Source of the DNA: a virus
Taxonomy: Duplodnaviria; Caudoviricetes
Length of the DNA stretch: 43,788 bases
Direction: 5' to 3' (one strand)
IMG/VR virus record: IMGVR_UViG_3300011339_000704
Coordinates: 1-43,788 of that record
Each line of letters opens with the position of its first letter. Position 1 is the first letter of the stretch. Of the stretch, positions 839 to 22,490 are shown one piece after another. The notes under the pieces were generated by a model, which saw only the letters and a list, made by a program, of their open reading frames with translations, did no database searches and was not told where the DNA came from. Position numbers and translations under genes: made by a program.

Positions 839-924
839 AAAGACTGTTAAAAATAATACTAGCCATAGTTATACTGTGGTTGGTTATTGATGCCGCTAAC
901 TCTATAAACCAAGTGATACAATGA
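835..924 (+). CDS. small membrane protein (29 aa, not in ORF track)
   Basis: MKRLLKIILAIVILWLVIDAANSINQVIQ; ATGA overlaps at both ends; one hydrophobic helix. Confidence 0.6.
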   Translation: MKRLLKIILAIVILWLVIDAANSINQVIQ

Positions 925-3071
925 ATGACTACTTAGACTTTTTAGAAACTAAAGCCAAAACCATTATACAAAGTGGGTTTGAGCCAAAAGAATTAAACCC
1001 GTTACTTTTTCCTTTTCAAGACTTTATAGTGCGTAGGGCTTTAAAGGCTGGTAAATATGCAATTTTTGCTGATTGCGGTTTGGGCAAAAGTTTTATGCAA
1101 CTTGAATGGGCGCACCAAGTAAACCTGCACACTGGTAAAAAGGTATGCTTACTAGCCCCGTTAGCGGTTGTAAAGCAAACCCGTAAACAAGCTGCACAAT
1201 TTAATATACCGCTTGAATTTATCGACACCGATAACTACGAGCAACTATCAAACATTGACACGTCAGAATATGCTGGAGTAGTACTCGACGAAAGTTCGAT
1301 ACTTAAAAACTTTGAAGGTGCAACCAAGCAGCTAATACTTGATAAGTTTGCATTGACCCCTTACAAGTTAGCTTGCACCGCAACACCAAGCCCTAACGAC
1401 CCAATGGAAATAGGCAACCATAGCGAATTTTTAGACGTTATGGGGCGCAATGAAATGCTAGCAATGTACTTTGTGCATGATGGTGGCGAAACAGCTAAAT
1501 GGCGTTTAAAAGGTCATGCAGTTGAAACCTTTTACAAGTGGGTAGGAACGTGGGCGGTAATGCTATCCAAACCTTCCGATATTGGTTTTGAAATGGAAGG
1601 GTACGAATTACCAGCCCTTAACTTTATTGAGCACACCATAACCACCCCGAAACGAGATAACGGGCAACTGTTTAACGATGTGGCGATAAGTGCCACTAAC
1701 TTTAATGGTGAACTTCGTATAACATTATTACCCCGTATGGAGTTGGCAGCGGATCTGGTCAACAACTCAAAAGATAATTTTATTGTTTGGGTAAAGCAAA
1801 ATGCAGAAGGCGACCATATCCGTAAATTGATACCCGAAGCCGTGGAGGTTAGCGGTTCAGACAGCCCCGAATATAAAGCTGAAAAGCTATTAGGGTTTGG
1901 AGAAAATGAATTTAGGGTACTAATAACCAAAACCAAGATTGCCAGCTTTGGCATGAATTACCAAAATTGCCACAATCAAATATTTGCATCTTTAGATTTT
2001 AGTTTTGAAGCATTATACCAAGCTATCCGCAGGTCGTATAGGTTCGGGCAAAAGAACGAAGTAAATATTTTTATTATCACAACCGATACAATGACAAACG
2101 TATTGGAAGTGATAAAGCAAAAAGAAACGGCATTTAAAAAGATGCAATACGAGTTATCTAAAACCATTAACCAAAACCTAAACATGGAACGCACAATAGA
2201 ATTAATTGATGGAGAGCAAGAAGTAAAAACAGACCTATACCATATACACCGTGGGGACTGCGTACAAGGGTTATCTAAAGTTGAAAGTGAAAGCATTGGG
2301 TTTTCGGTATTTAGCCCACCATTTGCAGACCTTTATACGTATTCAAACCACATTGAAGATATGGGGAACAGTACCGATTATAACCAATTTTTGGTACAGT
2401 TTGGTTTTTTGGTAAAAGAACTGCACAGGGTAGTAATGAGCGGCAGGAATGTGGGCGTTCATTGTATGGATTTACCAATACAAAAAGGCAAAGAAGGATT
2501 TATCGGACTTCGTGACTTTAGTGGATTGATTATTAAGGCTTTTACCGATGCAGGGTTTATTTACCATAGCAGGGTAACAATTTGGAAAGACCCCGTAGTT
2601 GAAATGCAGCGTACTAAAGCATTGGGGTTGCTTCATAAGCAAGTAAAAAAGGACAGCACCATGAGCCGTGTTGGTATTCCCGATTATGTTTTGATATTCC
2701 GCAAGGATGGGGAACGTGAAAACCCTGTAAAATGTACCATTGATGTTGACACGTGGCAAAAATACGCTTCGCCTGTTTGGATGGATATTAAGTACGGCAA
2801 CACTTTACAGTACATGAGTGCACGTGACGAAAAAGACGAAAAGCATATTTGCCCTTTGCAGCTTGACACAATTGAAAGGTTAATACACCTCTACACTAAC
2901 CCTAATGACACCGTATTAACCCCATTTATGGGTATTGGCAGCGAAGTATATCAAGCCGTTAAAATGGGGCGTAAGGGCGTAGGGTTTGAACTAAAGCAAT
3001 CATACTTTGATGTAGCCGTAAAGAATTGCAGCGCAGCAGCACAATCACTTAACCAACTAACTTTAATGTAA
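921..3071 (+). CDS. SNF2-like helicase fused to N4/N6 DNA methyltransferase
   Basis: Walker A DCGLGKS, Walker B LDESS, TATP and QAIRRSYRFGQ. C-terminal amino-MTase has FSPPF before PFMGIGS (beta-class order) plus HICPLQ. Confidence 0.88.
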   Translation: MNDYLDFLETKAKTIIQSGFEPKELNPLLFPFQDFIVRRALKAGKYAIFADCGLGKSFMQLEWAHQVNLHTGKKVCLLAPLAVVKQTRKQAAQFNIPLEFIDTDNYEQLSNIDTSEYAGVVLDESSILKNFEGATKQLILDKFALTPYKLACTATPSPNDPMEIGNHSEFLDVMGRNEMLAMYFVHDGGETAKWRLKGHAVETFYKWVGTWAVMLSKPSDIGFEMEGYELPALNFIEHTITTPKRDNGQLFNDVAISATNFNGELRITLLPRMELAADLVNNSKDNFIVWVKQNAEGDHIRKLIPEAVEVSGSDSPEYKAEKLLGFGENEFRVLITKTKIASFGMNYQNCHNQIFASLDFSFEALYQAIRRSYRFGQKNEVNIFIITTDTMTNVLEVIKQKETAFKKMQYELSKTINQNLNMERTIELIDGEQEVKTDLYHIHRGDCVQGLSKVESESIGFSVFSPPFADLYTYSNHIEDMGNSTDYNQFLVQFGFLVKELHRVVMSGRNVGVHCMDLPIQKGKEGFIGLRDFSGLIIKAFTDAGFIYHSRVTIWKDPVVEMQRTKALGLLHKQVKKDSTMSRVGIPDYVLIFRKDGERENPVKCTIDVDTWQKYASPVWMDIKYGNTLQYMSARDEKDEKHICPLQLDTIERLIHLYTNPNDTVLTPFMGIGSEVYQAVKMGRKGVGFELKQSYFDVAVKNCSAAAQSLNQLTLM

Positions 3072-5065: not shown

Positions 5066-5787
5066 TGAACGGTTACGAACTTAGTAGGGTATGGTTTGCC
5101 TATACGTATAACCACCCCGACAAATTTAGCCCGATAGATACTGCCTTATATTTTTGGATAATAGAGGTATTTAATAGGGCTAGGTGGTCAGAAAAAATAT
5201 ACTTGCCATCTGGTCAAGCTATGCAGCATATAGGGTGTAAATCTTATAAGGCTTACATCAATAGTTTCAATAAACTTGAAGCGGAAGGATTTATAAAAGT
5301 AGTTGAACGTAGTAAAAACCAATATACGGCTAATATAATTGCTTTGGTTTCTAATGCTAAAGCACTGACCGAAGCAAGTACTAAAGCAACTACTAATGCA
5401 AGTACTGAAGCAAGTACCGAAGCACTGACCGAAGCAAGTACAGTATATAAGAACATAGAACATACAACAAAGAACATAGAACCTTTTGCATCTGAAGTTC
5501 AATTTCCCGACAACTTTACAGACGATCATAAACAACTTTGGTTTCAATATGAGCAAGTACGGGAAAGTATACCTAAGCCACCTTATTCACCAGCAGCAAG
5601 GCAATTAGCTATTACAGAATTTGTACGTAGTGCGAGTGCTGACCCGAAAAAATATACGCAAGGGTTAAAAGCAAGTATAACGGGTGCATGGGTAACGCCT
5701 AAATGGTTTGCACCTAAAATAGATAAGTACACCCCCGAACCACAACAAAAATCAAGTTACGACCGCAAATTTAAAGGCTATGAATAA
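5065..5787 (+). CDS. phage replication initiator (lambda O-like position)
   Basis: MNGYELSR.WF N-terminus with wHTH-like region, internal iteron repeats, directly upstream of DnaB. Confidence 0.75.
   Translation: MNGYELSRVWFAYTYNHPDKFSPIDTALYFWIIEVFNRARWSEKIYLPSGQAMQHIGCKSYKAYINSFNKLEAEGFIKVVERSKNQYTANIIALVSNAKALTEASTKATTNASTEASTEALTEASTVYKNIEHTTKNIEPFASEVQFPDNFTDDHKQLWFQYEQVRESIPKPPYSPAARQLAITEFVRSASADPKKYTQGLKASITGAWVTPKWFAPKIDKYTPEPQQKSSYDRKFKGYE
5360..5482 (+). repeat. iteron array / probable replication origin
   Basis: Seven tandem 12-bp units (consensus AAGCAAGTACYR, 5360-5443), then two AAGAACATAGAAC copies (5449-5461, 5470-5482). Confidence 0.75.
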
Positions 5788-8128
5788 CCTATACGAAAAA
5801 CAAGTACTTGGCGCAATTGTGCAAAGCGATGAAAGCCTACCCGACCTAATGGCAATGGTGCATGAAGATATGTTCAGCACAAGCGAATACAAAGACATTT
5901 TCAGAAGTGCAAAGTACCTATACGACAGTGGAAGACAAGTAAACATTATTAGCATACTGACACACAACAAAAAGCACGACATAATGAAGCTAACCGATGT
6001 TAGCGGTGCAATAGCTTCAACAGCTCACGTAATGGATTGTGCTAAAATACTTGTGCAGGAATTTATAAGGCATGAAATTGTTTCGCTTGCTGCAAAGATT
6101 AGCAACATGGCACTAGCACAAGACGACGTATTCGACATTTTAAACTACACAGGCACGACCGCTGGCAACTTAGAGCAAACCATAAGCCCGTCAACTATTG
6201 AGCACGTTAGCACCATTGTAAAAGAACAAGCAATCAAACGTGAAAAGGTAGTGGACATGGCAGGCATACCTACGGGTTTTAAAGAACTTGATAAACTTTT
6301 AGGGGGGTTTGTTGACGAATGGCTTATAATCGTAGCAGCGAGGCCAGGCATGGGCAAGTGTCTAGGCAAAGGCACTAAGGTTATAATGTTTGATGGCTCA
6401 GTTAAAAACGTAGAAGATGTTGTTGTTGGCGATAAGCTAATGGGCGATGACTCAACACCTAGAAACGTACTATCTTTAGCAAGGGGGCGTGAAGATATGT
6501 ATTGGATTAGGCAAAATAAAGGTATTGATTACCGTGTAAATAAAAGCCATATTTTGTCTTTGAAAAAAAGCAGGTCAGAGGGCGACCGTGGTAAAGGTGA
6601 AGTGCTTAATATTTCGGTATCTGATTATTTAGATAAGACTAATAAATTCAAATCAAATTACAAAGGTTATAAGGTAGCCGTAGAATTTGAAGCGAAAGCG
6701 GTTAATCTTGACCCGTATTATTTAGGCTTATGGCTTGGTGATGGAACGACAGTAAACCAAAATATAACTAACAGCGATAGTGAGATAATAGAATTTTTAA
6801 GCGGATATGCATCTAAACAAGGGGGCAGATTATCAACTAAGGTTCATGCAGGTAAAGCCCCCACGCATACCCTTTTAGATTGCAAAATGCAACAACAGTT
6901 AAGGGCATTAGGTGTTTTGGGTTTTAAACACATACCTAATGACTACTTAATAAATTCAACTGAAAACAGATTAAGGTTATTGGCAGGGCTACTTGATACA
7001 GATGGGTACTATGATAAAGCAGCTAACGTATTTGAGATAACACAAACCAAAGAACATTTAGCAAAGCAAATTAAATATTTATGCGATTCGCTTGGATTTA
7101 GGACTAACTATAAAAGCAAGATTGCAACTATTAAATCAACAGGCTTTAAAGGCGAGGTATTTAGATTGCAAATATCTGGTGACTTGCATTTAATACCTAC
7201 ATTAGTTGAGCGCAAAAAGGCTAGGATTGGCAGTAAGCAAAAAGACAATAAGGTTACGGGGATTAAAGTTGAATACGACAAAGTAGATGATTATTATGGG
7301 TTTGAAATTGATGGCAATAGGTTATTTCTTTTAGAAGATATGACGGTAACGCATAACACTAGCCTAATGCTATCCTTTGCCTACTACATTGCTAAGGCTG
7401 GCTATGCAGTGGATATTTATTCAATGGAAATGAGTAAAGGACAGTTGACCGATAATTTAATTAGTATGCATTGTGGCGTACCGTTGTGGAAGATACAGCG
7501 CAACAAATTGGAGCACTACGAATTAGAGCAAGTAAAGCAAGCGGAAGCGTTTATATCAAGCCTACCAATACACATTGACGACCAGCCCCGTATAAAGGGC
7601 AGACAGATACGAAGCAGGATAGTGATGGGTAAAAAGAAACGAGATACGAAAATAGTAATGGTTGATTATATTCAGATAATGGGTGAGGAAGGCAAAGGCA
7701 ACCGAGAGCAGGAAATTAGCAATATAAGCGGAAACCTAAAAGCCGCTGCAAAGGAAGCTAAGATACCTATTATCGCATTGGCACAACTAAGTAGGGAGGT
7801 AGAGAAACGAGCCGACAGGCGACCGCAATTAAGCGATTTACGGGAATCGGGCGCAATAGAGCAAGATGCGGATATTATTATGTTTCCTTTTCGGGCTTGG
7901 TACTACCATACAACTGGTGTTGATGGTTTTGAGTATAACGATAAGAACGAAAGCACCGAAAATTTAGGCGAGTTGTTAATTGCCAAAAACAGGCATGGTA
8001 TGGTAGGTGATATTGAGGTAGGTTGGGAAGGTAGTAAAAAGCTATTTTACGACAAAGAACAGGATTTTGAGCCAAAACCTTTATCTAAAATGCAGCGACC
8101 AAGTGAAGATGATTTTGACGTATTTTAA
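5780..8128 (+). CDS. dnaB: replicative DNA helicase DnaB, intein-containing
   Basis: GIPTGF, AARPGMGK|T, SMEM, VDYIQ, LAQLSR, SDLRESGAIEQDAD and AKNRHG motifs. Confidence 0.95.
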   Translation: MNNLYEKQVLGAIVQSDESLPDLMAMVHEDMFSTSEYKDIFRSAKYLYDSGRQVNIISILTHNKKHDIMKLTDVSGAIASTAHVMDCAKILVQEFIRHEIVSLAAKISNMALAQDDVFDILNYTGTTAGNLEQTISPSTIEHVSTIVKEQAIKREKVVDMAGIPTGFKELDKLLGGFVDEWLIIVAARPGMGKCLGKGTKVIMFDGSVKNVEDVVVGDKLMGDDSTPRNVLSLARGREDMYWIRQNKGIDYRVNKSHILSLKKSRSEGDRGKGEVLNISVSDYLDKTNKFKSNYKGYKVAVEFEAKAVNLDPYYLGLWLGDGTTVNQNITNSDSEIIEFLSGYASKQGGRLSTKVHAGKAPTHTLLDCKMQQQLRALGVLGFKHIPNDYLINSTENRLRLLAGLLDTDGYYDKAANVFEITQTKEHLAKQIKYLCDSLGFRTNYKSKIATIKSTGFKGEVFRLQISGDLHLIPTLVERKKARIGSKQKDNKVTGIKVEYDKVDDYYGFEIDGNRLFLLEDMTVTHNTSLMLSFAYYIAKAGYAVDIYSMEMSKGQLTDNLISMHCGVPLWKIQRNKLEHYELEQVKQAEAFISSLPIHIDDQPRIKGRQIRSRIVMGKKKRDTKIVMVDYIQIMGEEGKGNREQEISNISGNLKAAAKEAKIPIIALAQLSREVEKRADRRPQLSDLRESGAIEQDADIIMFPFRAWYYHTTGVDGFEYNDKNESTENLGELLIAKNRHGMVGDIEVGWEGSKKLFYDKEQDFEPKPLSKMQRPSEDDFDVF
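6359..7357 (+). mobile_element. intein with LAGLIDADG homing endonuclease in the DnaB P-loop
   Basis: Begins CLGKGT after GMGK and ends VTHN before +1 Thr. Blocks LGLWLGDG and LLAGLLDTDG present. 333 aa; spliced DnaB would be 449 aa. Confidence 0.93.
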
Positions 8129-12679: not shown

Positions 12680-13303
12680 ATGCCAGCAGGTAGACCAAGC
12701 GAATACAACAAGATGATAATCGAAACAAAGAAAATATCGGAACTACAGCCAGCCCCGTACAACCCAAGACAGAGCACGGCAAAGCAAGAGGAAAAGCTAA
12801 AGGCTTCACTATCTAAATTTGGATTGGTTGAGCCAATAATTTTCAACAAGCAAACGGGCTATATCGTTGGCGGTCACTTCAGAGTAAGGCAGTTAACGAA
12901 ACTAGGCTACGAAGAAATAGAATGCGTTATCGTTGATTTAAACGAAGCTGACGAAAAGGAATTGAATATAAGGCTGAATGCCAACACGGGGCAATGGGAC
13001 TGGGAAATGCTCGCAAATTCGTGGGACAGCGATGAGTTGAGTGAGTGGGGTTTGGACGGCATAGGGTTTGATGTTGATGCTAAAGATATGGGCGATGACT
13101 TTAGTTTGCCCGATGGCGATAAAGCCCCGTTTCAGCAAATGACATTTACATTAGCAGATGAGCAAGCAGAGGTGATACAAAACGCCATAGCGGAAATGAA
13201 GCTAACGGATGAGTACAAGTATGCCGAAACAATGGGCAACGAAAACAGCAACGGTAACGCACTTTATTTAATAGCAGCAGCATGGGCAGGGCAAAGGATA
13301 TAA
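12680..13303 (+). CDS. ParB/Srx-like N-terminal domain protein (alternative start 12713)
   Basis: ISELQPAPYNPR...FGLVEPII...IVGGHFR...LNANTGQWD motifs; overlaps the Mom-like gene. Confidence 0.85.
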   Translation: MPAGRPSEYNKMIIETKKISELQPAPYNPRQSTAKQEEKLKASLSKFGLVEPIIFNKQTGYIVGGHFRVRQLTKLGYEEIECVIVDLNEADEKELNIRLNANTGQWDWEMLANSWDSDELSEWGLDGIGFDVDAKDMGDDFSLPDGDKAPFQQMTFTLADEQAEVIQNAIAEMKLTDEYKYAETMGNENSNGNALYLIAAAWAGQRI

Positions 13304-14085
13304 TCGTTAAGGTAATACCGTCTAAAATCGCTAATGAGTTTGTAAAAAAGCACCATTATAGCGGTAAGGTAGTTCCTAATAGCACATTACATTTTGGTTG
13401 TTTTTTAGATGATAAGCTGCATGGGGTTATGAGTTATGGAAGCCCTTTAAATAAAAATTCAGTTATAGGGTTAGTGCAATATACTCAATGGAATGAAATG
13501 TTAGAATTAAATAGAATGGCATTTGACGAGTACCTACCTAAATATTCTGAAAGTAGGTGTATAGCGGTAACAATAAGGTTGATAAAAAAAAATGCTCCTC
13601 ACATAAAATGGATTTTGAGCTTCTCAAATGCTTGCGAATGTGGCGATGGTACAATTTATAGGGCAAGCGGCTTCAAATTAACCAACATAAAGGCAAATAA
13701 AAACAATTGGGTATTACCTAATGGTAAGGTTGTAAATATACTTAATTTTTCAAACAAGTATATGCTTTTAGATTTTAAAAGGAAGGGATTAAAACAAACT
13801 GATACCCCACACACAAATGCAAAAAAACTAAAAGCTGTTATACAAGAGGGATACCAACTCCAATATATATGCTTAATAGATAAATCCTGTAAAATAACCG
13901 TACCAATTTTACCTTTTTCAAAAATAGATGAGATGGGTGCTGGTATGTACAAAGGAAATAAAGTATCTTTACAGGAGCGGAAAAATAATCATGCGGTATT
14001 AGCACAAGGTAGTGCGTCTGACACCCTGTCAGAAGATGGCGTTCGGAGCGACCATACCGCTCAATCTGGAAGTAATGGCATATAA
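13282..14085 (+). CDS. mom: Mom-like adenine modification enzyme (GNAT fold)
   Basis: ANEFVKKHHYS, GVMSYG, LELNRM, SESRCI, WILSFS and GTIYRASGF motifs of the Mu Mom family. Confidence 0.8.
   Translation: MGRAKDIIVKVIPSKIANEFVKKHHYSGKVVPNSTLHFGCFLDDKLHGVMSYGSPLNKNSVIGLVQYTQWNEMLELNRMAFDEYLPKYSESRCIAVTIRLIKKNAPHIKWILSFSNACECGDGTIYRASGFKLTNIKANKNNWVLPNGKVVNILNFSNKYMLLDFKRKGLKQTDTPHTNAKKLKAVIQEGYQLQYICLIDKSCKITVPILPFSKIDEMGAGMYKGNKVSLQERKNNHAVLAQGSASDTLSEDGVRSDHTAQSGSNGI
13993..14061 (+). tRNA. non-canonical tRNA-Gly(CCC)-like element inside the 3' end of the mom-like gene
   Basis: Acceptor GCGGTAT/ATACCGC, D-arm GCAC-AAGGTA-GTGC, anticodon arm TCTGA-CACCCTG-TCAGA, irregular T-arm GGCG-TTCGGAG-CGACC, discriminator T; CCA not encoded. 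Confidence 0.72.
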
Positions 14086-14455
14086 CACCGCAACACTAAA
14101 GAAACAAGCGTTAGCCGCAATAGAGAAACACAAACTATTCTTTATTGAGGATGTTGTGGCGTTTATACCGTGTGCAAAGCCTACATTTTATGAGCATTTT
14201 CCTAACGAATCTAACGATAGAAAGGAAATAGACGAACTACTGGAACGCAACCGTATTGAAGTTAAAACGAGTATGCGTAGTAAGTGGTACAAAAGCGAAG
14301 CCCCAGCCTTGCAATTAAGCCTATACAAGCTAATAGCCACGACAGACGAACGGAACGCACTAAGCATGAGCAAGGTAGATGTAACCAGCGGAGGGGATAA
14401 GATAGACAACACTATCGTAATTAAGCACGTTGATATGAGTAAGCCCGAAAAGTAG
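14075..14455 (+). CDS. terS: terminase small subunit
   Basis: Directly upstream of TerL; HTH-like FIEDVVAFIPCAKPTFYEHF; C-terminal VDVTSGGDKI typical of TerS. Confidence 0.7.
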   Translation: MAYNTATLKKQALAAIEKHKLFFIEDVVAFIPCAKPTFYEHFPNESNDRKEIDELLERNRIEVKTSMRSKWYKSEAPALQLSLYKLIATTDERNALSMSKVDVTSGGDKIDNTIVIKHVDMSKPEK

Positions 14456-14512: not shown

Positions 14513-15712
14513 ATGGAATTAGCATTTAACAGCGCATACAATAGGCTAAGGGTAACTCACAAGCGTTACGTATGTTTAGTGGGCGGCAGGGGTTCGGGAA
14601 AAAGTTTTGTAGCTGCACAGGATATTATAATCAACATGGTTGAGCAAGACTATTTCCGTTGCGTTATTGCCCGTGCCAACTTTAGCGATATTCGAGGTTC
14701 GCAGTTCCAACAGCTAAAGGATATTATCAATGGTAGTGGTATGGAGCACCTATTTCACATTCGAGAAAACACAATGGAAATAGAATGCAAGCTAAACAGC
14801 AACAAGATAATTGCTAAAGGGTTTCGTGCCAGCAGCGGCAGCGCAACGGCTAAAATGAAATCCATTACAGAGGTCAACTACGCATGGGTTGAGGAAGCCG
14901 ATGAAGTAGGGTACAGCGATTTTAACAAGTTCGACCTATCGTTAAGAACCACCAAAGGCAAAAAGCTAAAGATAGTTTTAAGCTACAACACCGAGAATGA
15001 GGATTGCTGGTTAAAAACCAAGTTTCACGACACCAACTATTCAGAGTGTGAGTTTATACACACCACCTACCATTGCAATATTCGGAACTTACACCCCGAC
15101 TACATACGCAAAATGGAAAGCCTACTAGAGATTGACCCCGAATATTACAGGGTAGTTGTGTTAGGTGAGTGGGGTAGTGGTAAGCAAGGTAAGATATTCG
15201 ACAAATACGAAACAGGCGAATTTCCGCAACACTTCACAAGCGAAGCCTACGGGCTTGATTTTGGTTTTACTAATGACCCTACCGCTTTAGTACACATACG
15301 CTATTCAGAGGGCGCAATTTACGTTAGGCAACTAATATACGGTTACGGGTTAACTAACTCTGACATTTGCGATAAAATGCGAGGTTTGGGCGTTACACGA
15401 AATGACGTTATCTTTGCTGATAGTGCCGAGCCAAAGAGTATCGAGGAAATATACCGTCAAGGTTTCAACATCAAGCCAACGGTTAAGGGTGCAGATAGCA
15501 TCAACTTAGGCATTCAGCTAATGAAACAATATCCGTTAGTATTTTGTCAAAGCCCCGACATTATGAAGGAATTAAAAAATTACACTTGGGCAAGTGATAA
15601 GATGGGTAATTTGTTAAACAAGCCTATTGATGCGTTTAACCATACAATAGATGCGGCACGTTACGCCTGTACGGGGTTAATGGGTCAACCTAAAAACCAA
15701 ATTTACTACTAA
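14513..15712 (+). CDS. terL: terminase large subunit (PBSX family)
   Basis: Walker A GGRGSGKS, Walker B WVEEA, nuclease motifs GLDFGFTNDP, ADSAEP and NHTIDAARY. Confidence 0.95.
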   Translation: MELAFNSAYNRLRVTHKRYVCLVGGRGSGKSFVAAQDIIINMVEQDYFRCVIARANFSDIRGSQFQQLKDIINGSGMEHLFHIRENTMEIECKLNSNKIIAKGFRASSGSATAKMKSITEVNYAWVEEADEVGYSDFNKFDLSLRTTKGKKLKIVLSYNTENEDCWLKTKFHDTNYSECEFIHTTYHCNIRNLHPDYIRKMESLLEIDPEYYRVVVLGEWGSGKQGKIFDKYETGEFPQHFTSEAYGLDFGFTNDPTALVHIRYSEGAIYVRQLIYGYGLTNSDICDKMRGLGVTRNDVIFADSAEPKSIEEIYRQGFNIKPTVKGADSINLGIQLMKQYPLVFCQSPDIMKELKNYTWASDKMGNLLNKPIDAFNHTIDAARYACTGLMGQPKNQIYY

Positions 15713-16863: not shown

Positions 16864-17550
16864 GTGATACCCAAAATACTACTCGGAGCACCGATAAACC
16901 AACGCAAGGCATACGTACTTGACGAATGGCTAAAGTTCATTAGAACGCTTACCTATCCTAACTTGCATATTATTCTAGTGGATAACAGCAACGACCCGAA
17001 ATGGCACAAGACAATAAAAGGTTTTGATGTTCGCAGGGTAGAGCCTAAAGGCAGACCCGAAGCGTACATAGCAGCATCGCAGGAAGTGATAAGAGAGTAC
17101 GCACTAACTAACGGGTTTGATTATCTATTTAGTTTGGAGTGCGATAACTTTTGCCCACAAGACACCATTGAACGGTTGCTAGTGTACCGTACCGATAACA
17201 TTAACGTGCCTTACTTTTTGAAGGAGGGTTTAAATACCACCGTTGGCGTTCAATTGATGGGTATTAGCCAAGCCACTTACAGGCGGTTTGATGTACCACC
17301 ACCCGAAAGCTGCATAGGGTTCTTTGATGGCAAACTAAAGACAGGCGTACCGTCAATCGGGTGTAGTTTGTTTAGCCGTAACCTACTCGAAAAGGTGCAA
17401 TTTAGGCACGACCCAAACCAACTAGGTAAGTTTAGCGATAGTTGGTTTCACCTTGACAGCATGAGAGTAGGAATAACCCCCGTAATTGTAACCGATATAA
17501 TTTCAACACATAAACGTAACCCACAATGGAGTTCAATAAAGAACAACTAG
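16864..17550 (+). CDS. glycosyltransferase (GT-A fold)
   Basis: IILVDNS, YLFSLECD (DxD-like), GCSLFSR and FSDSWF motifs. Confidence 0.8.
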   Translation: MIPKILLGAPINQRKAYVLDEWLKFIRTLTYPNLHIILVDNSNDPKWHKTIKGFDVRRVEPKGRPEAYIAASQEVIREYALTNGFDYLFSLECDNFCPQDTIERLLVYRTDNINVPYFLKEGLNTTVGVQLMGISQATYRRFDVPPPESCIGFFDGKLKTGVPSIGCSLFSRNLLEKVQFRHDPNQLGKFSDSWFHLDSMRVGITPVIVTDIISTHKRNPQWSSIKNN

Positions 17551-17993
17551 AACAAGCATGGCAGGAACGCTTTGAACGTGAGCACGAATACCTAACACTT
17601 ATCGAAGGGTATCGCAACGCAAAGCAAAAGGCACTAGACAAAGCCGAACCCGATAGCGTGGAGTACTGGCAGCTAAGTATAGAGATATTCGACCTAGATA
17701 CCAACATCAAAACAAAAGAACATTATATCGAAAGCATGAAACAAGACAAGGCGCAACAACAAGCCTTTCAAGATGCCAAGATGCAATTTATCGAAACGCA
17801 TTCGACGGACATACTTAAAAAGGCAAGGGTATGTATAGAGAGGGGAACGGATAGAGCAACCGTACTCGAAGCCTTGACAAAGGAAATGCCGCAACGAGAA
17901 ACGCCCGAATGGTATGCAAGGATATGGGAGATTAACGAGCACGTGAACGCTGCGAAAGTACCAACAACCGAACAACTAAAAGCGGTTAAATGA
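17526..17993 (+). CDS. alpha-helical hypothetical protein
   Basis: Coupled ORF rich in E/Q/K. Confidence 0.65.
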   Translation: MEFNKEQLEQAWQERFEREHEYLTLIEGYRNAKQKALDKAEPDSVEYWQLSIEIFDLDTNIKTKEHYIESMKQDKAQQQAFQDAKMQFIETHSTDILKKARVCIERGTDRATVLEALTKEMPQRETPEWYARIWEINEHVNAAKVPTTEQLKAVK

Positions 17994-18649
17994 AAGACTT
18001 TGAATATTCAGTAATGCAAACGCATAACCATCTTTATTTTTTTGGGGAATATGTACCAAAGACAAAAGACATACAGAGTTATGGCTATTACAAAGCCGTT
18101 ATGTATGACGGTAATAGCTTTAATTTAAATATGGGGGTAGGGGAATCCAATATGTATGATTTTAAAAAGATTTTCCAAGACATTGAGATTGCCAATTTTT
18201 TAGAAATGCCTTCGCTAGATTTCCAACTTCAAGGCAAAACCATAAAAAATTGGTATGGTGATATTATTGCTAACTCAAAGCAAGCTATAACTACCGATTG
18301 TGAATTTCTTTGTAAAAGTGGAAGCGATAGCCCTTTTATAATACCAACAGGCACAAAGATAGATTTAACACTTAACTCATTTACTTACAAAGGTGAGCGC
18401 AGAGATTGGCGTGGCGTTATAGGGTTACCAAGCCTACCACAAAGTGTATTAGTTAGGAATGAAAATGAATGGGTTAACATAAAGCAAGTTTTAACCGTGT
18501 TAGAACATGACTATGTTGAAATAGATTTATTTCCAAAATCCATTGCTATTGATGAGAATAGCAAAACAATTACAATTAACGAGCCTAATGCAATAGACAT
18601 TAACGGCAAAGAATTTTATAACGATATGTTTTTTAAGATTTGGAGATGA
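17990..18649 (+). CDS. hypothetical protein
   Basis: ATGA-coupled on both sides; visibly more AT-rich than neighbours. Confidence 0.65.
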   Translation: MKDFEYSVMQTHNHLYFFGEYVPKTKDIQSYGYYKAVMYDGNSFNLNMGVGESNMYDFKKIFQDIEIANFLEMPSLDFQLQGKTIKNWYGDIIANSKQAITTDCEFLCKSGSDSPFIIPTGTKIDLTLNSFTYKGERRDWRGVIGLPSLPQSVLVRNENEWVNIKQVLTVLEHDYVEIDLFPKSIAIDENSKTITINEPNAIDINGKEFYNDMFFKIWR

Positions 18650-19323
18650 GAATAAGCCTAATACACCCAAGCCGTAGCCGCCCCGAAATGGCACACGCTA
18701 ACTACCTTAACTGGTTAGCCAAAAGCGAAGCGCACAACAACGGGAATTCAAAGATAATCATTGAGCATATCCTGTCATTGGACTTAGATGAACCGAGATA
18801 CGATGACTATGTACGGTTGTTTGGGGCGCACCACATAGTCCGTGAGAATACAAGCGATGGGTACGTAGTAGGTGCGACCAATGCAGCGGCTAAGTACGCC
18901 ACAGGTGACATTCTGATTTACCTTAGTGATGACTTTGATTGCCCTAAACATTGGGATAAGTTGATAGCGGATAAAATGGATATTAACCTTGAGCAAATAC
19001 TAAAGGTTGATGACTGTTTGCAGCCAATGGGAGTAGCCGTATTAACCATACCCATAATGACTAAAGCGTTTTATAATCGGTTTGGGTATTTCTTCCACCC
19101 CGAATACAAATCAATGTTTTGCGATGAGGACTTGTACCATGTAGCCCGTATAATAAACGGGTTAGTATTTGCACCCGATTTAAAGTTCCCACACTTACAC
19201 CCTAGTAACCCGACAAAGGAACTACAAGGTACAAGCGATAACACTTACAACCGTTCTAATGGTATGTGGACACAAGGGCAAACACTACACACCAAACGAA
19301 GGTTAAATAATTACGGGCTATGA
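18646..19323 (+). CDS. glycosyltransferase family 2-like
   Basis: ISLIHPSRSR, ATNAAAKYATGDILIYLSDD, YKSMFCDED and HLHP motifs. Confidence 0.8.
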   Translation: MRISLIHPSRSRPEMAHANYLNWLAKSEAHNNGNSKIIIEHILSLDLDEPRYDDYVRLFGAHHIVRENTSDGYVVGATNAAAKYATGDILIYLSDDFDCPKHWDKLIADKMDINLEQILKVDDCLQPMGVAVLTIPIMTKAFYNRFGYFFHPEYKSMFCDEDLYHVARIINGLVFAPDLKFPHLHPSNPTKELQGTSDNTYNRSNGMWTQGQTLHTKRRLNNYGL

Positions 19324-19877
19324 AGCTATCAATTTTAATATGCTCAATCGAAAGCCGTAGCCACTTGTTAGCTAGGTTGTTGGCTACACTGGATATGCAA
19401 AGCGATATTAATGCGGAAGTGTTAGTGTCGATTGATAACCGCCAAAAGAAAATAAGCGATAAGCGCAACGAGTTATTGGATAAGGCTAAAGGCGACTATA
19501 TTGTTTTTATAGATGATGACGACCTAGTGCCGAGTTACTACGTTAGCGAACTGTTAAAGGCTATTGAAACCAAACCCGATTGCGTAGGCTTTGACGGCTA
19601 CATGACAACCAACGGCAAAGACCGCCACAACTTCAAGATTAGTAATACGTTTGACAGTTGGTACGAAAAAGACAAGGTTTATTATCGGACTATTAACCAC
19701 CTTTGCCCTGTTAAACGGGAACTCGCTTTAAGGGTAAAATTTCCGAGAGGTATAAATAGCGGTGAAGATGCCGACTATTCAAACAGGCTAAGACCATTAC
19801 TTAAAACAGAGGTTTACATTAACAAAGATATGTACCATTACGATTTTCAAACAGCGATAACTACACAAGGCAAATGA
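19320..19877 (+). CDS. glycosyltransferase family 2
   Basis: LSILICS, KRNELLDKAKGDYIVFIDDDD and GEDADY motifs. Confidence 0.88.
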   Translation: MKLSILICSIESRSHLLARLLATLDMQSDINAEVLVSIDNRQKKISDKRNELLDKAKGDYIVFIDDDDLVPSYYVSELLKAIETKPDCVGFDGYMTTNGKDRHNFKISNTFDSWYEKDKVYYRTINHLCPVKRELALRVKFPRGINSGEDADYSNRLRPLLKTEVYINKDMYHYDFQTAITTQGK

Positions 19878-20473
19878 GATACTCACAAAACAATGAGCAG
19901 CAAGTAATACTAGACTACTTTGGCGAGCACTACATCGGTACGTTTTTAGATTTAGGCTGCAATGACGGGGTAACATTTTCAAACACCCGTGCAATCGCTT
20001 TAAACGGCTGGAGTGGTATGTTAGTAGATGCCAGCGAAACCGCTGCAAACCTAGCGCAAACGCTTTATAAAGACAATGACAGGGTAGAAGTAGTTAACGT
20101 AGCGATAGCACCTTACAAGGGCTTTATTACGTTTTACGAAAGCGGTACGCATTTAGGCGGTCAAGATGTTAGCTTAGTTAGTACGATAATCGAAAGTGAA
20201 AAACAACGATGGGTTAACGATAAATTTACAGAGGTGCAAGTACCTTGCGATACGGTTAAGAGCATAATGAACGGGCGCACGTTTGATTTTATCAATATTG
20301 ACATTGAGGGCATGGACTTTGAGGTGTTGAGTCAAATAGACTTAACTGATGTTAAATGCGTATGCGTGGAGTACAACGGGATAGAGCCAAAAAAGTATAT
20401 TCAGTATTGCGCTGGGTACGGATTAACCGAAATACACCGCAACGGAGAAAACCTAATTTTTGCAGCGATATGA
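19874..20473 (+). CDS. FkbM-family methyltransferase
   Basis: YSQNNE, FLDLGCNDG...SNT, GWSGMLVD, FINIDIEGMD and CVEY motifs. Confidence 0.88.
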   Translation: MRYSQNNEQQVILDYFGEHYIGTFLDLGCNDGVTFSNTRAIALNGWSGMLVDASETAANLAQTLYKDNDRVEVVNVAIAPYKGFITFYESGTHLGGQDVSLVSTIIESEKQRWVNDKFTEVQVPCDTVKSIMNGRTFDFINIDIEGMDFEVLSQIDLTDVKCVCVEYNGIEPKKYIQYCAGYGLTEIHRNGENLIFAAI

Positions 20474-21138
20474 GAAACATAATAGTAACCTTTGCAAAGG
20501 GCAACCCCCGATACATAGCAGCCGCAAAAGCGCAAAAGCAAAGCCTAATCGCTAAAGGCTATACAGGCGAATACATTTGTTACACCAGCGAAAAACAACT
20601 AGGTTGCCCAAACCACAAAGATAACCCATATGCGTTCAAAGCCTATGCGATTAAAAAGGCACTAGACGAAGGGTACGATAATATCCTTTGGCTGGATAGC
20701 GTGGTGCAATGCGTAGCCCCTTTAGATAAGCTATTTGAGCACATACAAGACACGGGGTATTCATTCTTTGACAACTACACCTATGCTATTGGTTCGTACT
20801 GTAACGATAGCTGCAAATCAATTTACGGCATAACGGAAACGGAACTACAAGCCCCTATGATTATGGCTTGCGTAATGGGACTAAATAGAGAAAAGGCTAA
20901 TGTATTTATTGAGCAGTATTACGAAGGTGCTTTAAACGGTTCTTTTGTTGGCAGTTGGGACGACCATAGGCACGACCAAACCGTTGCAAGCCTATTGATA
21001 AATAGGAATAATATACCTATCTTGCAAGGGCATGAAACCTTTTTTATGTACTACTTTATGGTAGGGCTTGAGTTCGAGTATAATAATCAATTAATCAAAC
21101 TAGACAGGGGTTCAGATGTATGCCTGTTATCAATCTAA
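20470..21138 (+). CDS. nucleotide-diphospho-sugar transferase-like protein
   Basis: PYAFKAYAI, ILWLDS and HRHDQT motifs of GT-A-like transferases; ATG 20470 is ATGA-coupled. Confidence 0.7.
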   Translation: MRNIIVTFAKGNPRYIAAAKAQKQSLIAKGYTGEYICYTSEKQLGCPNHKDNPYAFKAYAIKKALDEGYDNILWLDSVVQCVAPLDKLFEHIQDTGYSFFDNYTYAIGSYCNDSCKSIYGITETELQAPMIMACVMGLNREKANVFIEQYYEGALNGSFVGSWDDHRHDQTVASLLINRNNIPILQGHETFFMYYFMVGLEFEYNNQLIKLDRGSDVCLLSI

Positions 21139-21141
21139 CTT

Positions 21142-21759
21142 ATGGGAGTAACAACACACTCAAATAACCTAGTGCAAAAGCACAAAGGCAACGCTAAAAC
21201 AATGCTCGAATTAGGTAGCCAAAACACCTACTTTGATTGTGAGCCTACTGGAGTAGCTAAAGACTACTACACTAAACAAGGCTTTGACCATTATAGCCTT
21301 GATGCAAACGGGGAATACGATAGCGAGATAGTAGATTTGTCAACCGTATTGAATTTAGAGCCGTGCGACATTGTTACCGATTTCGGCACAAGCGAACACG
21401 TTAGCAATTATTATAACTGTTGGCTTAATAAACACAACGGGTGTAACATTGGCGGTTTGATTATAAGCGAAAACCCAAAGGTGAACAACTGGCACGGGCA
21501 CGGTTTTCACTACTTGACCAAAGAATTCTATACCGAACTTTGCAAGGTTGCAGGATATGAACTAATTGAAGTTGGTGAACACGCTGCAATGGGTAACGTA
21601 ACAGATGGGTGGAACGTGTACGGGGTATTGCGAAAAGTTAGCGATGCGTTTCCAAGTGAAAGTGACTTTTGCGCTTTGCCATTTGAAAGTACCAATAGAG
21701 ATAAACAGAAAACTGAAACAACCGCACCTAAAAAACGTGGCAGACCCTCAAAGAAATGA
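21142..21759 (+). CDS. class I SAM-dependent methyltransferase
   Basis: MLELGSQ, SLDANG, VDLS, DIVTDFGTSEHV and GGLII motifs; C-terminal PKKRGRPSKK. Confidence 0.78.
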   Translation: MGVTTHSNNLVQKHKGNAKTMLELGSQNTYFDCEPTGVAKDYYTKQGFDHYSLDANGEYDSEIVDLSTVLNLEPCDIVTDFGTSEHVSNYYNCWLNKHNGCNIGGLIISENPKVNNWHGHGFHYLTKEFYTELCKVAGYELIEVGEHAAMGNVTDGWNVYGVLRKVSDAFPSESDFCALPFESTNRDKQKTETTAPKKRGRPSKK

Positions 21760-22490
21760 AACTAGCAGCAGTTTACAACGTATGGGACGGATTAGAGCAC
21801 TTGGATAAGTCCATAAGCCTAATTTATCCGTTTGTTGACCACGTTATATTAGTGTGGCAAGACCGTAGTAATTTTGGCGAACTGAACCCCGATACTTCGA
21901 TATGCATTCAAGCATTATCGGCTAAGTACTCAAAGGTAACGCATAGCTACTACACCCCCGACATACAGAAAGGCGGTACGCATAACGAGATAGCCAAGCG
22001 GTTTAAAGGTAGCATGATTGCAAAGGATTTAGACTGTACGCATTTCCTGCATATTGATACGGATGAGTATTACGTACCTAGTGATTTTGAAGCTGGCAAA
22101 GCGTTTGTTTTGGAGCACAACCTAGACACTAGCTATTGTAAACTCGTTACCTACTTCAAACAGCCTAATTACAGATTAGAGCCTTTAGAAAGTTACTTTG
22201 TGCCGTTCATTTGCAAAATTACCTCATGCAATATTGGAGGTTTTGGAATATACGTAGACCCAACTAGGGGTACAAGCCCACAAGGTAGATGCAAGGAAGT
22301 ACCGATACTGATGCACCACATGAGTTATATTAGGAATGACATCGCAATGAAGATACGAAACAGCAGCGCACGGGGTAACATAAAGGACATGGCTAAACGG
22401 CTAAAGGAGATAGACGATTGGCAGCTAGGGCAACCACACCCGTTCATGCCACAGTATAGCATAGTGGAAACGAATAATTTATTTGAGTAA
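21756..22490 (+). CDS. glycosyltransferase family 2-like
   Basis: YNVWDG.EHL, HFLHIDTDEYY (DxD) and MHHMSYIR motifs. Confidence 0.75.
   Translation: MKLAAVYNVWDGLEHLDKSISLIYPFVDHVILVWQDRSNFGELNPDTSICIQALSAKYSKVTHSYYTPDIQKGGTHNEIAKRFKGSMIAKDLDCTHFLHIDTDEYYVPSDFEAGKAFVLEHNLDTSYCKLVTYFKQPNYRLEPLESYFVPFICKITSCNIGGFGIYVDPTRGTSPQGRCKEVPILMHHMSYIRNDIAMKIRNSSARGNIKDMAKRLKEIDDWQLGQPHPFMPQYSIVETNNLFE

What the first reader, a model, noticed from the sequence alone, without database searches (positions are those of the whole stretch)
13282..14085. Mom-like DNA-modifying enzyme carries its own translation-disabled tRNA-Gly: a candidate dedicated glycyl donor
Seen: 13993-14061, inside the last codons of the mom-like ORF, folds into a cloverleaf with perfect acceptor (7 bp), D (4 bp) and anticodon (5 bp) stems. 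The bacterial GlyRS identity elements are intact: G1-C72, C2-G71, G3-C70, U73 and anticodon C35/C36 (CCC). Features needed for translation are lost: A33 replaces U33, U37 replaces a purine, C32-G38 can pair, the T-loop lacks A58, and the T-stem is short/bulged (GGCG vs CGACC) around the 49-65/51-63 pairs read by EF-Tu. A -7-like box (TATCTTTA, 13964-13971) lies just upstream. Established: Mom is a GNAT-fold enzyme making N6-carbamoylmethyl-adenine, a glycinamide-type adduct. GNAT-fold FemXAB ligases use Gly-tRNA, and staphylococci keep non-proteinogenic tRNA-Gly with weakened EF-Tu determinants for them. As I recall, recent work reports Gly-tRNA as the Mom donor; this should be verified. Inference: the phage encodes an enzyme-plus-private-tRNA module that diverts host GlyRS output into anti-restriction DNA hypermodification.
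Basis: partly seen in the sequence, partly recalled or inferred. Interest (0 to 1): 0.92.

Follow-up and report, generated by a model that had tools for sequence, protein, structure and literature searches.

The report
Mom enzyme's private glycine-tRNA look-alike
Right behind its gene for the DNA-disguising enzyme Mom, this phage carries a conserved, reshaped glycine-tRNA look-alike that travels with Mom genes in many phages and likely serves as the enzyme's own glycine carrier rather than as a tRNA for protein synthesis (untested at the bench).

Summary
The cloverleaf at 13993-14064 is real and is one member of a conserved RNA family. It follows mom in 79 of 79 close viral loci with sequence there, on either strand, with strong covariation. 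Glycine identity bases (G1-C72, C2-G71, U73, C35, C36) and a bulged A in the T-stem are invariant (65/65). The link is to Mom: 112 of 120 pattern-found copies lie within 300 nt of a mom gene, against 0 of 120 ordinary tRNA-Gly genes; in the same genomic slot, 3/3 loci with Mom have it and 0/21 without. Antisense copies have a terminator (24/24) and a promoter box (22/24). Mom's use of Gly-tRNA is published (PMC13219725). Best reading: a likely host-charged, EF-Tu-avoiding glycyl donor for Mom (0.7); expression, charging and transfer are untested. Against: Mu lacks the RNA; this Mom has Asn at Mu D149. A tRNA-Gly-like locus inside a mom homologue was noted in 2011 without a function, and this scan found the idea before on other genomes.

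The parts
12680..13303 (+). ParB-N-domain protein whose end overlaps the mom start; usual upstream partner
   Evidence: Pfam PF02195 E 2.3e-7; a ParB-like ORF in 79 of 79 close loci and 66 of 72 pattern-found Mom loci with room upstream
13282..14085 (+). Mom-family GNAT (267 aa; conserved part ends near 13980, the rest is read-through across the RNA)
   Evidence: PF25680 E 3.6e-44, PHROG 1384, 8bv8 by sequence and fold (pLDDT 90.7, Foldseek E 4.6e-16). H25, Y26, R78, S91, Y126 match Mu H58, Y59, R111, S124, Y159; N116 stands at D149, C118 at R151
13964..13971 (+). Imperfect Bacteroidota -7-type box (TAnnTTTA) inside mom codons; possible promoter of the RNA and of the genes behind it
   Evidence: Sequence; TAnnTTTG within 40 nt upstream in 18 of 32 sense and 22 of 24 antisense copies, background 2.5%; consensus from PMC6847099
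13993..14064 (+). tRNA-Gly-like RNA: G1-C72, C2-G71, G3-C70, U73 (14061), anticodon CCC (14024-14026), 4-bp T-stem with bulged A (14051); CCA not encoded
   Evidence: only match of model R1 in the 43.8-kb record (the window copy is in the model's seed)
14075..14455 (+). Putative terminase small subunit (by position; no family hit)
   Evidence: No Pfam, PHROG or NCBIfam match; lies before terL; the gene at this place in phage Y8A is annotated terminase small subunit
14513..15712 (+). Terminase large subunit
   Evidence: Pfam Terminase_3 E 2.7e-32, TIGR01547

Best explanation
The element is a conserved, Mom-linked tRNA-Gly look-alike that is likely transcribed, trimmed, given CCA and loaded with glycine by host enzymes, is predicted to escape EF-Tu through its bulged T-stem, and would then hand its glycine to Mom for anti-restriction modification of phage DNA. 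Shown here: the fold, its covariation, the invariant glycine identity bases, the invariant T-stem bulge, the tie to Mom in both directions, and promoter and terminator motifs around the antisense copies. Taken from the literature: Mu Mom transfers glycine from Gly-tRNA-Gly to adenine N6; GlyRS reads G1-C72, C2-G71, U73, C35, C36; EF-Tu affinity is set by T-stem pairs 49-65, 50-64, 51-63; EF-Tu sequestration inhibits a tRNA-using transferase (FmhB). Inferred: expression, CCA addition, charging, weak EF-Tu binding, use by this Mom, and that this Mom (Asn at Mu D149) makes the same adduct as Mu Mom.
For: (1) Presence: 79 of 79 close viral mom loci with sequence past the gene (best 80 of 559); 79 of 80 in a second, partly overlapping set; 20 of 30 GTDB loci directly behind a mom copy, in bins of several phyla; 38 of 77 distant 50%-cluster representatives carry the read-through peptide of the T-arm and acceptor (GGxxPTxxL), 0 matches in 15,092 core residues. 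(2) Selection on the fold: 99.4% of cells paired, 18 of 20 pairs with double changes, 0 of 500 shuffles, slid controls 36-55%; window against L033/L072: four compensatory double changes among 12 differences; further compensatory or pair-keeping changes in runs X17, X15, X13. (3) What never changes: G1-C72, C2-G71, U73, C74, C35, C36 and the bulged A, 65 of 65 in an unanchored parse; base 34, which GlyRS does not need, varies (U 56, A 8, C 1). (4) What is lost: 8-nt anticodon loop in 30 of 56; 50 of 56 lack at least one further canonical hallmark; 12 of 12 host tRNA-Gly genes away from mom have an unbulged 5-bp T-stem. (5) Tie to Mom: 112 of 120 pattern-found copies have Mom within 300 nt, against 0 of 120 ordinary tRNA-Gly(UCC) genes; the Moms fall in three groups under 40% identity (58, 17, 1); terS-first test 3 of 3 with Mom, 0 of 21 without. 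(6) Acts in trans: 24 of 56 distinct copies are antisense, 24 of 24 with a terminator, 22 of 24 with TAnnTTTG. (7) Papers: PMC13219725, PMC9976931, PMC3239215, PMC7826273.
Against: No expression, charging, EF-Tu or transfer data. Mu, JD024 and pAEv1818 have Mom and no such RNA in the whole record; none lies within 1.5 kb of mom in five further annotated phages; 8 of 30 GTDB loci and L443 lack it; all E. coli tRNA-Gly isoacceptors support Mu Mom. The window's Mom has Asn at Mu D149 (Asp in 101 of 105 seed rows; D149A is reported to cut activity strongly), although the gene is under purifying selection (dN/dS 0.05-0.06 against L002, L004, L005) and L005 has an internal stop. No measured EF-Tu value for a bulged T-stem was found; G49-C65 and G50-C64 are in themselves not weak pairs in that table. 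U34 is kept in 52 of 56 and 6 of 56 keep all other hallmarks, as a decoding tRNA would. L129 has the RNA before terS with no mom in a 54% complete record. The discriminator did not follow the bin's own tRNA-Gly in two cases (L110 A73 against U73; L101 U73 against A73), which may be mis-binning. The terS-first positives are only two independent loci (L375 and L376 are near copies). The window's own -7 box is imperfect and sense copies have no terminator (0 of 32).
Confidence: 0.7

Rival explanations
1. The RNA is a Mom-binding regulator or RNA antidote: a tRNA-Gly-shaped decoy that sits in Mom's donor site and restrains or times the enzyme, rather than feeding it.
For: Same tight link to Mom and trans action; Mu Mom reads the tRNA body, since glycine on tRNA-Ala is not used, so acceptor-stem conservation could be for Mom alone; D-armless forms exist (L081, L111).
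Against: C35 and C36 are invariant although Mu Mom accepts all isoacceptors and is thought to read the acceptor end; these are GlyRS determinants. C74 is invariant and many distant copies encode CCA. A charged copy would be a substrate.
Confidence: 0.11
2. It is an unusual but working decoding tRNA-Gly that replaces the host Gly-tRNA that Mom drains late in infection.
For: U34 in 52 of 56; 6 of 56 keep every other hallmark; Rfam tRNA scores of 34-49 bits in 7 of 8 relatives; a bulged 8/4 selC* tRNA-Cys is reported to work in translation (PMC5389517, PMC7609411).
Against: 8-nt anticodon loops in 30 of 56, loss of U8, D-loop GG, TTC or A58 in most, A33 with U37 here, D-armless forms, and a bulge never seen in 12 host tRNA-Gly genes; ordinary phage tRNA-Gly genes do not sit beside mom (0 of 120).
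Confidence: 0.09
3. It is a cis-acting RNA processing or antisense signal that cuts or tunes the parB-mom-terS transcript.
For: In the window, a cut at G1 would remove mom's stop codon and free terS 10 nt behind the RNA; L129 keeps the RNA before terS without mom.
Against: The same fold occurs on either strand (24 of 56 antisense) with its own terminator; it is absent from 21 of 21 terS loci without mom; a cleavage signal would not need C35 and C36.
Confidence: 0.05
4. It is a decoy for host defences or toxins that attack tRNA-Gly, or a decaying tRNA relic carried along with the cassette.
For: TacT reads U73 and G71 of tRNA-Gly (PMC9976931); a few Clostridia copies have lost C35 or C36 (L106, L117 second copies).
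Against: A decoy would not need to sit beside mom; decay is excluded by the covariation and invariant bases.
Confidence: 0.05

Closest known systems
Phage Mu Mom with host Gly-tRNA-Gly (Silva et al. 2026, PMC13219725; PDB 8bv8; Pfam PF25680)
   Same: Same enzyme family and fold; H58, Y59, R111, S124, Y159 equivalents kept; donor is Gly-tRNA-Gly.
   Different: Mu uses host tRNAs and encodes no tRNA-like RNA; here Mom has a ParB-like partner, Asn at D149, Cys at R151, and an adjacent RNA. Word searches of the paper's main text and two supplements found no mention of phage-encoded tRNA partners (one supplement is a scan and was not searched).
Staphylococcal non-proteogenic tRNA-Gly NP1-NP3, donors for FmhB, FemA, FemB (PMC7826273, PMC3239215)
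   Same: tRNA-Gly body with identity bases kept and D/T regions altered, serving a GNAT-fold transferase outside the ribosome; EF-Tu sequestration is the reason such tRNAs help.
   Different: Those are chromosomal, have a regular T-stem with weak pairs (A49-U65, U50-A64, A51-U63) and serve cell-wall synthesis; this one is mobile, gene-linked to its enzyme, has a bulged A, and would serve DNA modification. Their weak EF-Tu binding is measured; here it is predicted.
76-bp tRNA-Gly-like locus inside the mom homologue of Dehalococcoides ssrA islands (McMurdie et al. 2011, PMC3146451)
   Same: ParB plus Mom module with a conserved tRNA-Gly-like fold, anticodon 'DCC'.
   Different: It lies in the first 150 bp of mom, not at the 3' end; no function was proposed in the passages read; the alignment is a picture I could not see, so a T-stem bulge is unchecked.
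selC* tRNA-Cys and allo-tRNAs with 8/4 branch (Mukai et al. 2017, PMC5389517)
   Same: Short T-stem with a bulged A.
   Different: 8-bp acceptor, bulge on the 5' strand (51a), Cys/Ser/Sec identity, works in translation; here 7-bp acceptor, bulge on the 3' strand, glycine identity.

Membership tests
Mom family (PF25680) | Profile match over the curated cut-off | tested here: met
   151 bits against 27.1
Mom family (PF25680) | GNAT fold like Mu Mom 8bv8 | tested here: met
   AF2 model pLDDT 90.7; best Foldseek hit 8bv8, E 4.6e-16, TM 0.64
Mom family (PF25680) | Essential residues R111 and S124 | tested here: met
   R78, S91
Mom family (PF25680) | D149 and R151 of Mu Mom | tested here: not met
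   N116 and C118; R151 is not conserved in this part of the family (T 53, C 27 of 105), D149 is (101 of 105); N116 is shared with L001-L004, and L005 by translation
Mom family (PF25680) | Forms 6-NcmdA from Gly-tRNA-Gly | not testable with these tools
   Needs an enzyme assay
Bacterial tRNA-Gly (GlyRS substrate) | G1-C72, C2-G71, G3-C70, U73, C35, C36 | tested here: met
   All in the window copy; 65 of 65 for all but G3-C70 (62 of 65); identity set from PMC9976931
Bacterial tRNA-Gly (GlyRS substrate) | Mature CCA end and glycylation | not testable with these tools
   Genomic end is C-A-A; no RNA holder listed
Canonical elongator tRNA | Regular 5-bp T-stem | tested here: not met
   Bulged A in 56 of 56 and 65 of 65; 0 of 12 host tRNA-Gly
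Canonical elongator tRNA | 7-nt loop with U33 and purine 37; A58 | tested here: not met
   Window: A33, U37, G58, unchanged in four near relatives; family 8-nt loop 30 of 56
Non-proteogenic tRNA-Gly (staphylococcal NP type) | A49-U65, U50-A64, A51-U63 T-stem; staphylococcal lineage | tested here: not met
   G49-C65, G50-C64, bulge; so not a member, only an analogue
Non-proteogenic tRNA-Gly (staphylococcal NP type) | Weak EF-Tu binding and preferred use by a transferase | not testable with these tools
   The published table covers no bulged stems
allo-tRNA / selC* (8/4, 9/3) | 12-bp acceptor branch with 8- or 9-bp acceptor stem | tested here: not met
   7-bp acceptor plus 4 bp

The most novel reading that the evidence does not exclude
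Many phage Mom enzymes form a two-part enzyme-plus-RNA system: a widespread, so far undescribed family of phage glycyl-carrier RNAs, kept off EF-Tu by a bulged A in the T-stem and shrinking to D-armless forms, borrows host GlyRS to run a private activated-glycine supply for DNA hypermodification.
Probability: 0.6. Interest if true: 0.9.

Novelty: new variant of a known kind. Interest (0 to 1): 0.8.

Why it matters
It would be a case of a virus encoding a tRNA not to read codons but to feed a DNA-modifying enzyme, extending the staphylococcal idea of non-ribosomal tRNA-Gly to phage anti-restriction. It answers a point left open in the 2026 Mom paper, how Mom gets Gly-tRNA without fighting translation, and can be tested at once in that paper's coupled assay; the cultured Psychrobacter phage Y8A carries two minimal copies. 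The bulged T-stem is a candidate natural EF-Tu antideterminant, useful for orthogonal aminoacyl carriers. Annotation misses these RNAs (ARAGORN of 60 relatives, 7 of them without an anticodon) and they distort Mom C-termini by read-through.

Tried and rejected
An unanchored first parser was too loose and picked false folds; replaced. RNA evidence: no RNA holder listed; a metagenome scan for copies ending in CCA gave 110 chance matches of 120, 6 real elements (4 with Mom, 2 near contig ends), and no contig ending at CCA. Repeated inversion of the RNA: orientation is not clustered on the Mom tree (18 changes against 19 shuffled; quick tree), but clades follow Mom's variable middle and one contig has that middle replaced (table 5), so cassette exchange explains it and the number of inversions is unknown. 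Frameshift suppressor for poly-G switches in mom: no G run of 6 or more in 55 in-frame mom genes, whatever the loop size. Discriminator following the host: not seen in two bins. Packaging RNA tied to terS: rejected. Scans with distant representatives gave few loci; one of five has the RNA (L465). The alignment-driven scan returned close relatives again. Literature: ten searches found no paper proposing a Mom-dedicated tRNA; the library lacks most subscription papers.

Full report
What is there. The window is a 43.8-kb phage record (64% complete by CheckV); only 2 of 31 ORFs checked have a Shine-Dalgarno motif, as in Bacteroidota. The region reads ParB-like gene (12680-13303), mom (13282-14085), putative terS (14075-14455), terL (14513-15712). 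The protein is a Mom by profile, sequence and fold. The cloverleaf is as described: G1 at 13993, U73 at 14061, anticodon CCC, a 4-bp T-stem with an unpaired A at 14051. It beats chance and is missed by ARAGORN and Rfam.

It is a conserved family. Of the best 80 of 559 viral loci with a related Mom, one ends before the site and the other 79 carry the element within about 40 nt of Mom's conserved end. With the window there are 56 distinct sequences, 32 sense and 24 antisense to mom. On their alignment 99.4% of cells pair, 18 of 20 pairs show double changes, no shuffle of 500 reaches this and slid registers pair 36-55% (related sequences can beat shuffles, so the slid control and the 99.4% carry the weight). 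A covariance model finds it in 79 of 80 further, partly overlapping loci and directly behind mom in 20 of 30 GTDB loci. At protein level 38 of 77 distant representatives show its read-through peptide.

What is kept and what is lost. The first parse forced GC at both acceptor ends, so I repeated it unanchored: G1-C72, C2-G71, U73, C74, C35, C36 and the bulged A are present in 65 of 65, G3-C70 in 62. These are the bacterial glycine identity elements (PMC9976931, passages read). Base 34 varies, also among near relatives of the window (C to A in run X15). The bulge lies on the 3' strand just inside pair 50-64, in the stretch that sets EF-Tu affinity (pairs 49-65, 50-64, 51-63; PMC3239215, passages); covariation supports this register. 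In Bacteroidota-type copies the stem has 4 pairs, in others 5. Twelve host tRNA-Gly genes away from mom, from five genomes, have no bulge. Other hallmarks are lost patchily: 8-nt loop 30 of 56, U33 kept in 41, A37 in 54, A58 in 42, and only 6 of 56 keep all seven marks tested. The window copy is not decaying: against L033/L072 it has four compensatory double changes.

It goes with Mom. A pattern for the RNA's 3' half, with no reference to mom, returned 120 of about 470 viral stretches; 112 have Mom within 300 nt by HMM. Of the 8 misses, two have Mom in the record, one has a tblastn hit, one shows a Mom-like C-terminus by eye, three are cut by contig ends, and L129 is a true exception. A pattern for ordinary tRNA-Gly(UCC) gave 0 of 120 within 300 nt and one weak hit at 1.3 kb. 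The neighbouring Moms form three groups below 40% identity. Starting from terS, 3 of 24 loci have Mom and all three have the RNA; the other 21 hold mostly methyltransferase-like or other genes in this slot and none has it (two of the three are near copies). The pattern was drawn from mom-adjacent copies, so forms that live without mom and differ from it would be missed.

It looks like a free RNA. All 24 antisense copies are followed by a hairpin and T-run written into mom's last codons, and 22 have TAnnTTTG within 40 nt upstream (mostly 4-12 nt; background 2.5%); sense copies have the box in 18 of 32 (26 allowing a final A) and no terminator. TAnnTTTG is the Bacteroidota -7 element (PMC6847099, passages). 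The window's box has A at the nearly invariant G, so this copy may instead be cut out of the longer transcript.

Mechanism. Silva et al. (PMC13219725; abstract, discussion, part 1 of 4 of results, the structure section, one methods section and word searches read) show that Mu Mom moves glycine from Gly-tRNA-Gly to adenine N6, accepts all three E. coli isoacceptors and rejects glycine on tRNA-Ala. Rietmeyer et al. (PMC7826273, passages) show that EF-Tu-GTP starves a tRNA-using transferase by sequestration, less so with non-proteogenic tRNA-Gly. Putting these beside the anatomy: the RNA is likely charged by host GlyRS, is predicted to be ignored by EF-Tu, and would give Mom an unsequestered glycine supply. 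I put this at 0.7. Rivals: Mom-binding regulator 0.11, odd decoding tRNA 0.09, cis processing signal 0.05, decoy or relic 0.05.

Against. Nothing here shows expression, charging or transfer. Mu, JD024 and pAEv1818 lack the RNA altogether (Listeria phage A511 has two model hits about 100 kb from mom, not inspected), as do 8 of 30 GTDB loci and L443. The window's Mom has Asn for Mu D149 and Gln for a conserved Arg (N116, Q194), shared by a small clade under purifying selection (dN/dS 0.05-0.06), so its activity or product may differ. No EF-Tu data on bulged stems were found, and a differently bulged selC* tRNA translates (PMC5389517 and PMC7609411, passages). The discriminator did not match the bin's tRNA-Gly in two cases.

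Known and new. McMurdie et al. 2011 (PMC3146451, passages and the legend of supplement 1; the figure is a picture) saw a conserved tRNA-Gly-like locus in the first 150 bp of a mom homologue and gave it no function in what I read. Karambelkar 2020 (PMC7261163), the 2023 preprint and Iyer 2021 (PMC7824862), searched by words, do not mention such an RNA. Ten searches found no paper proposing a Mom-dedicated tRNA. This scan's earlier notes hold the same idea for at least 15 other genomes; my reading was written down before I looked and the counts above are my own. I class it as a new variant of a known kind, a non-ribosomal aminoacyl-tRNA donor for a GNAT transferase, with a new carrier design, a viral setting and DNA as the acceptor.

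Noticed in passing
window 13627-13629 and 13861-13863; L001-L005: A small Mom clade has Asn at the near-invariant Asp (Mu D149) and Gln at a conserved Arg, under strong purifying selection; perhaps a paired change or a different product.
   Followed up: partly
window 13439-13876; run X13 contig; tree: Mom's variable middle (the HTH-like insertion region) appears to be exchanged between conserved flanks, which could change the DNA motif modified.
   Followed up: partly
L081:3162-3302 (Psychrobacter phage vB_PmaS_Y8A, OQ059336.1 7786-7926): Two tandem D-armless copies with a long anticodon arm, bulged T-stem and encoded CCA behind mom in a cultured phage; unannotated. Similar D-armless forms at L111, L115, L116, L119.
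   Followed up: partly
L360-L383, upstream of terS: The slot between the ParB-like gene and terS holds Mom plus RNA, methyltransferase-like genes, a RadC-like or a dioxygenase-like gene in different phages (names judged by eye): a swappable cassette. L360/L361 hold only a methyltransferase-like fragment.
   Followed up: no
L106, L107, L108, L112, L113, L117: Clostridia prophages have two mom genes in tandem followed by one or two look-alikes; some have no bulge but an odd anticodon loop, and two second copies have lost C35 or C36.
   Followed up: partly
L102:315-388, L114:695-769: Unbulged but atypical tRNA-Gly(UCC) genes (U50.G64, C55; a 51-63 mismatch in L114) 1.3 kb upstream of mom genes that lack the 3' element.
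   Followed up: no
L118 near 2138-2146: mom is frameshifted at a long G run, like the poly-G switches noted earlier in this scan.
   Followed up: no
L129:1501-1539: The RNA stands before terS with no mom in the 35-kb record (54% complete).
   Followed up: partly
L110:2743-2818: The one copy seen with A73 instead of U73; the bin's own tRNA-Gly genes have U73.
   Followed up: yes
window 5780-8128: DnaB helicase with an intein carrying a LAGLIDADG endonuclease.
   Followed up: no
window 921-3071: Helicase-C domain fused to an N6/N4 DNA methyltransferase.
   Followed up: no
window 16864-22490: A run of genes behind the terminase with GT2 glycosyltransferase and FkbM methyltransferase hits; target unknown.
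   Followed up: no
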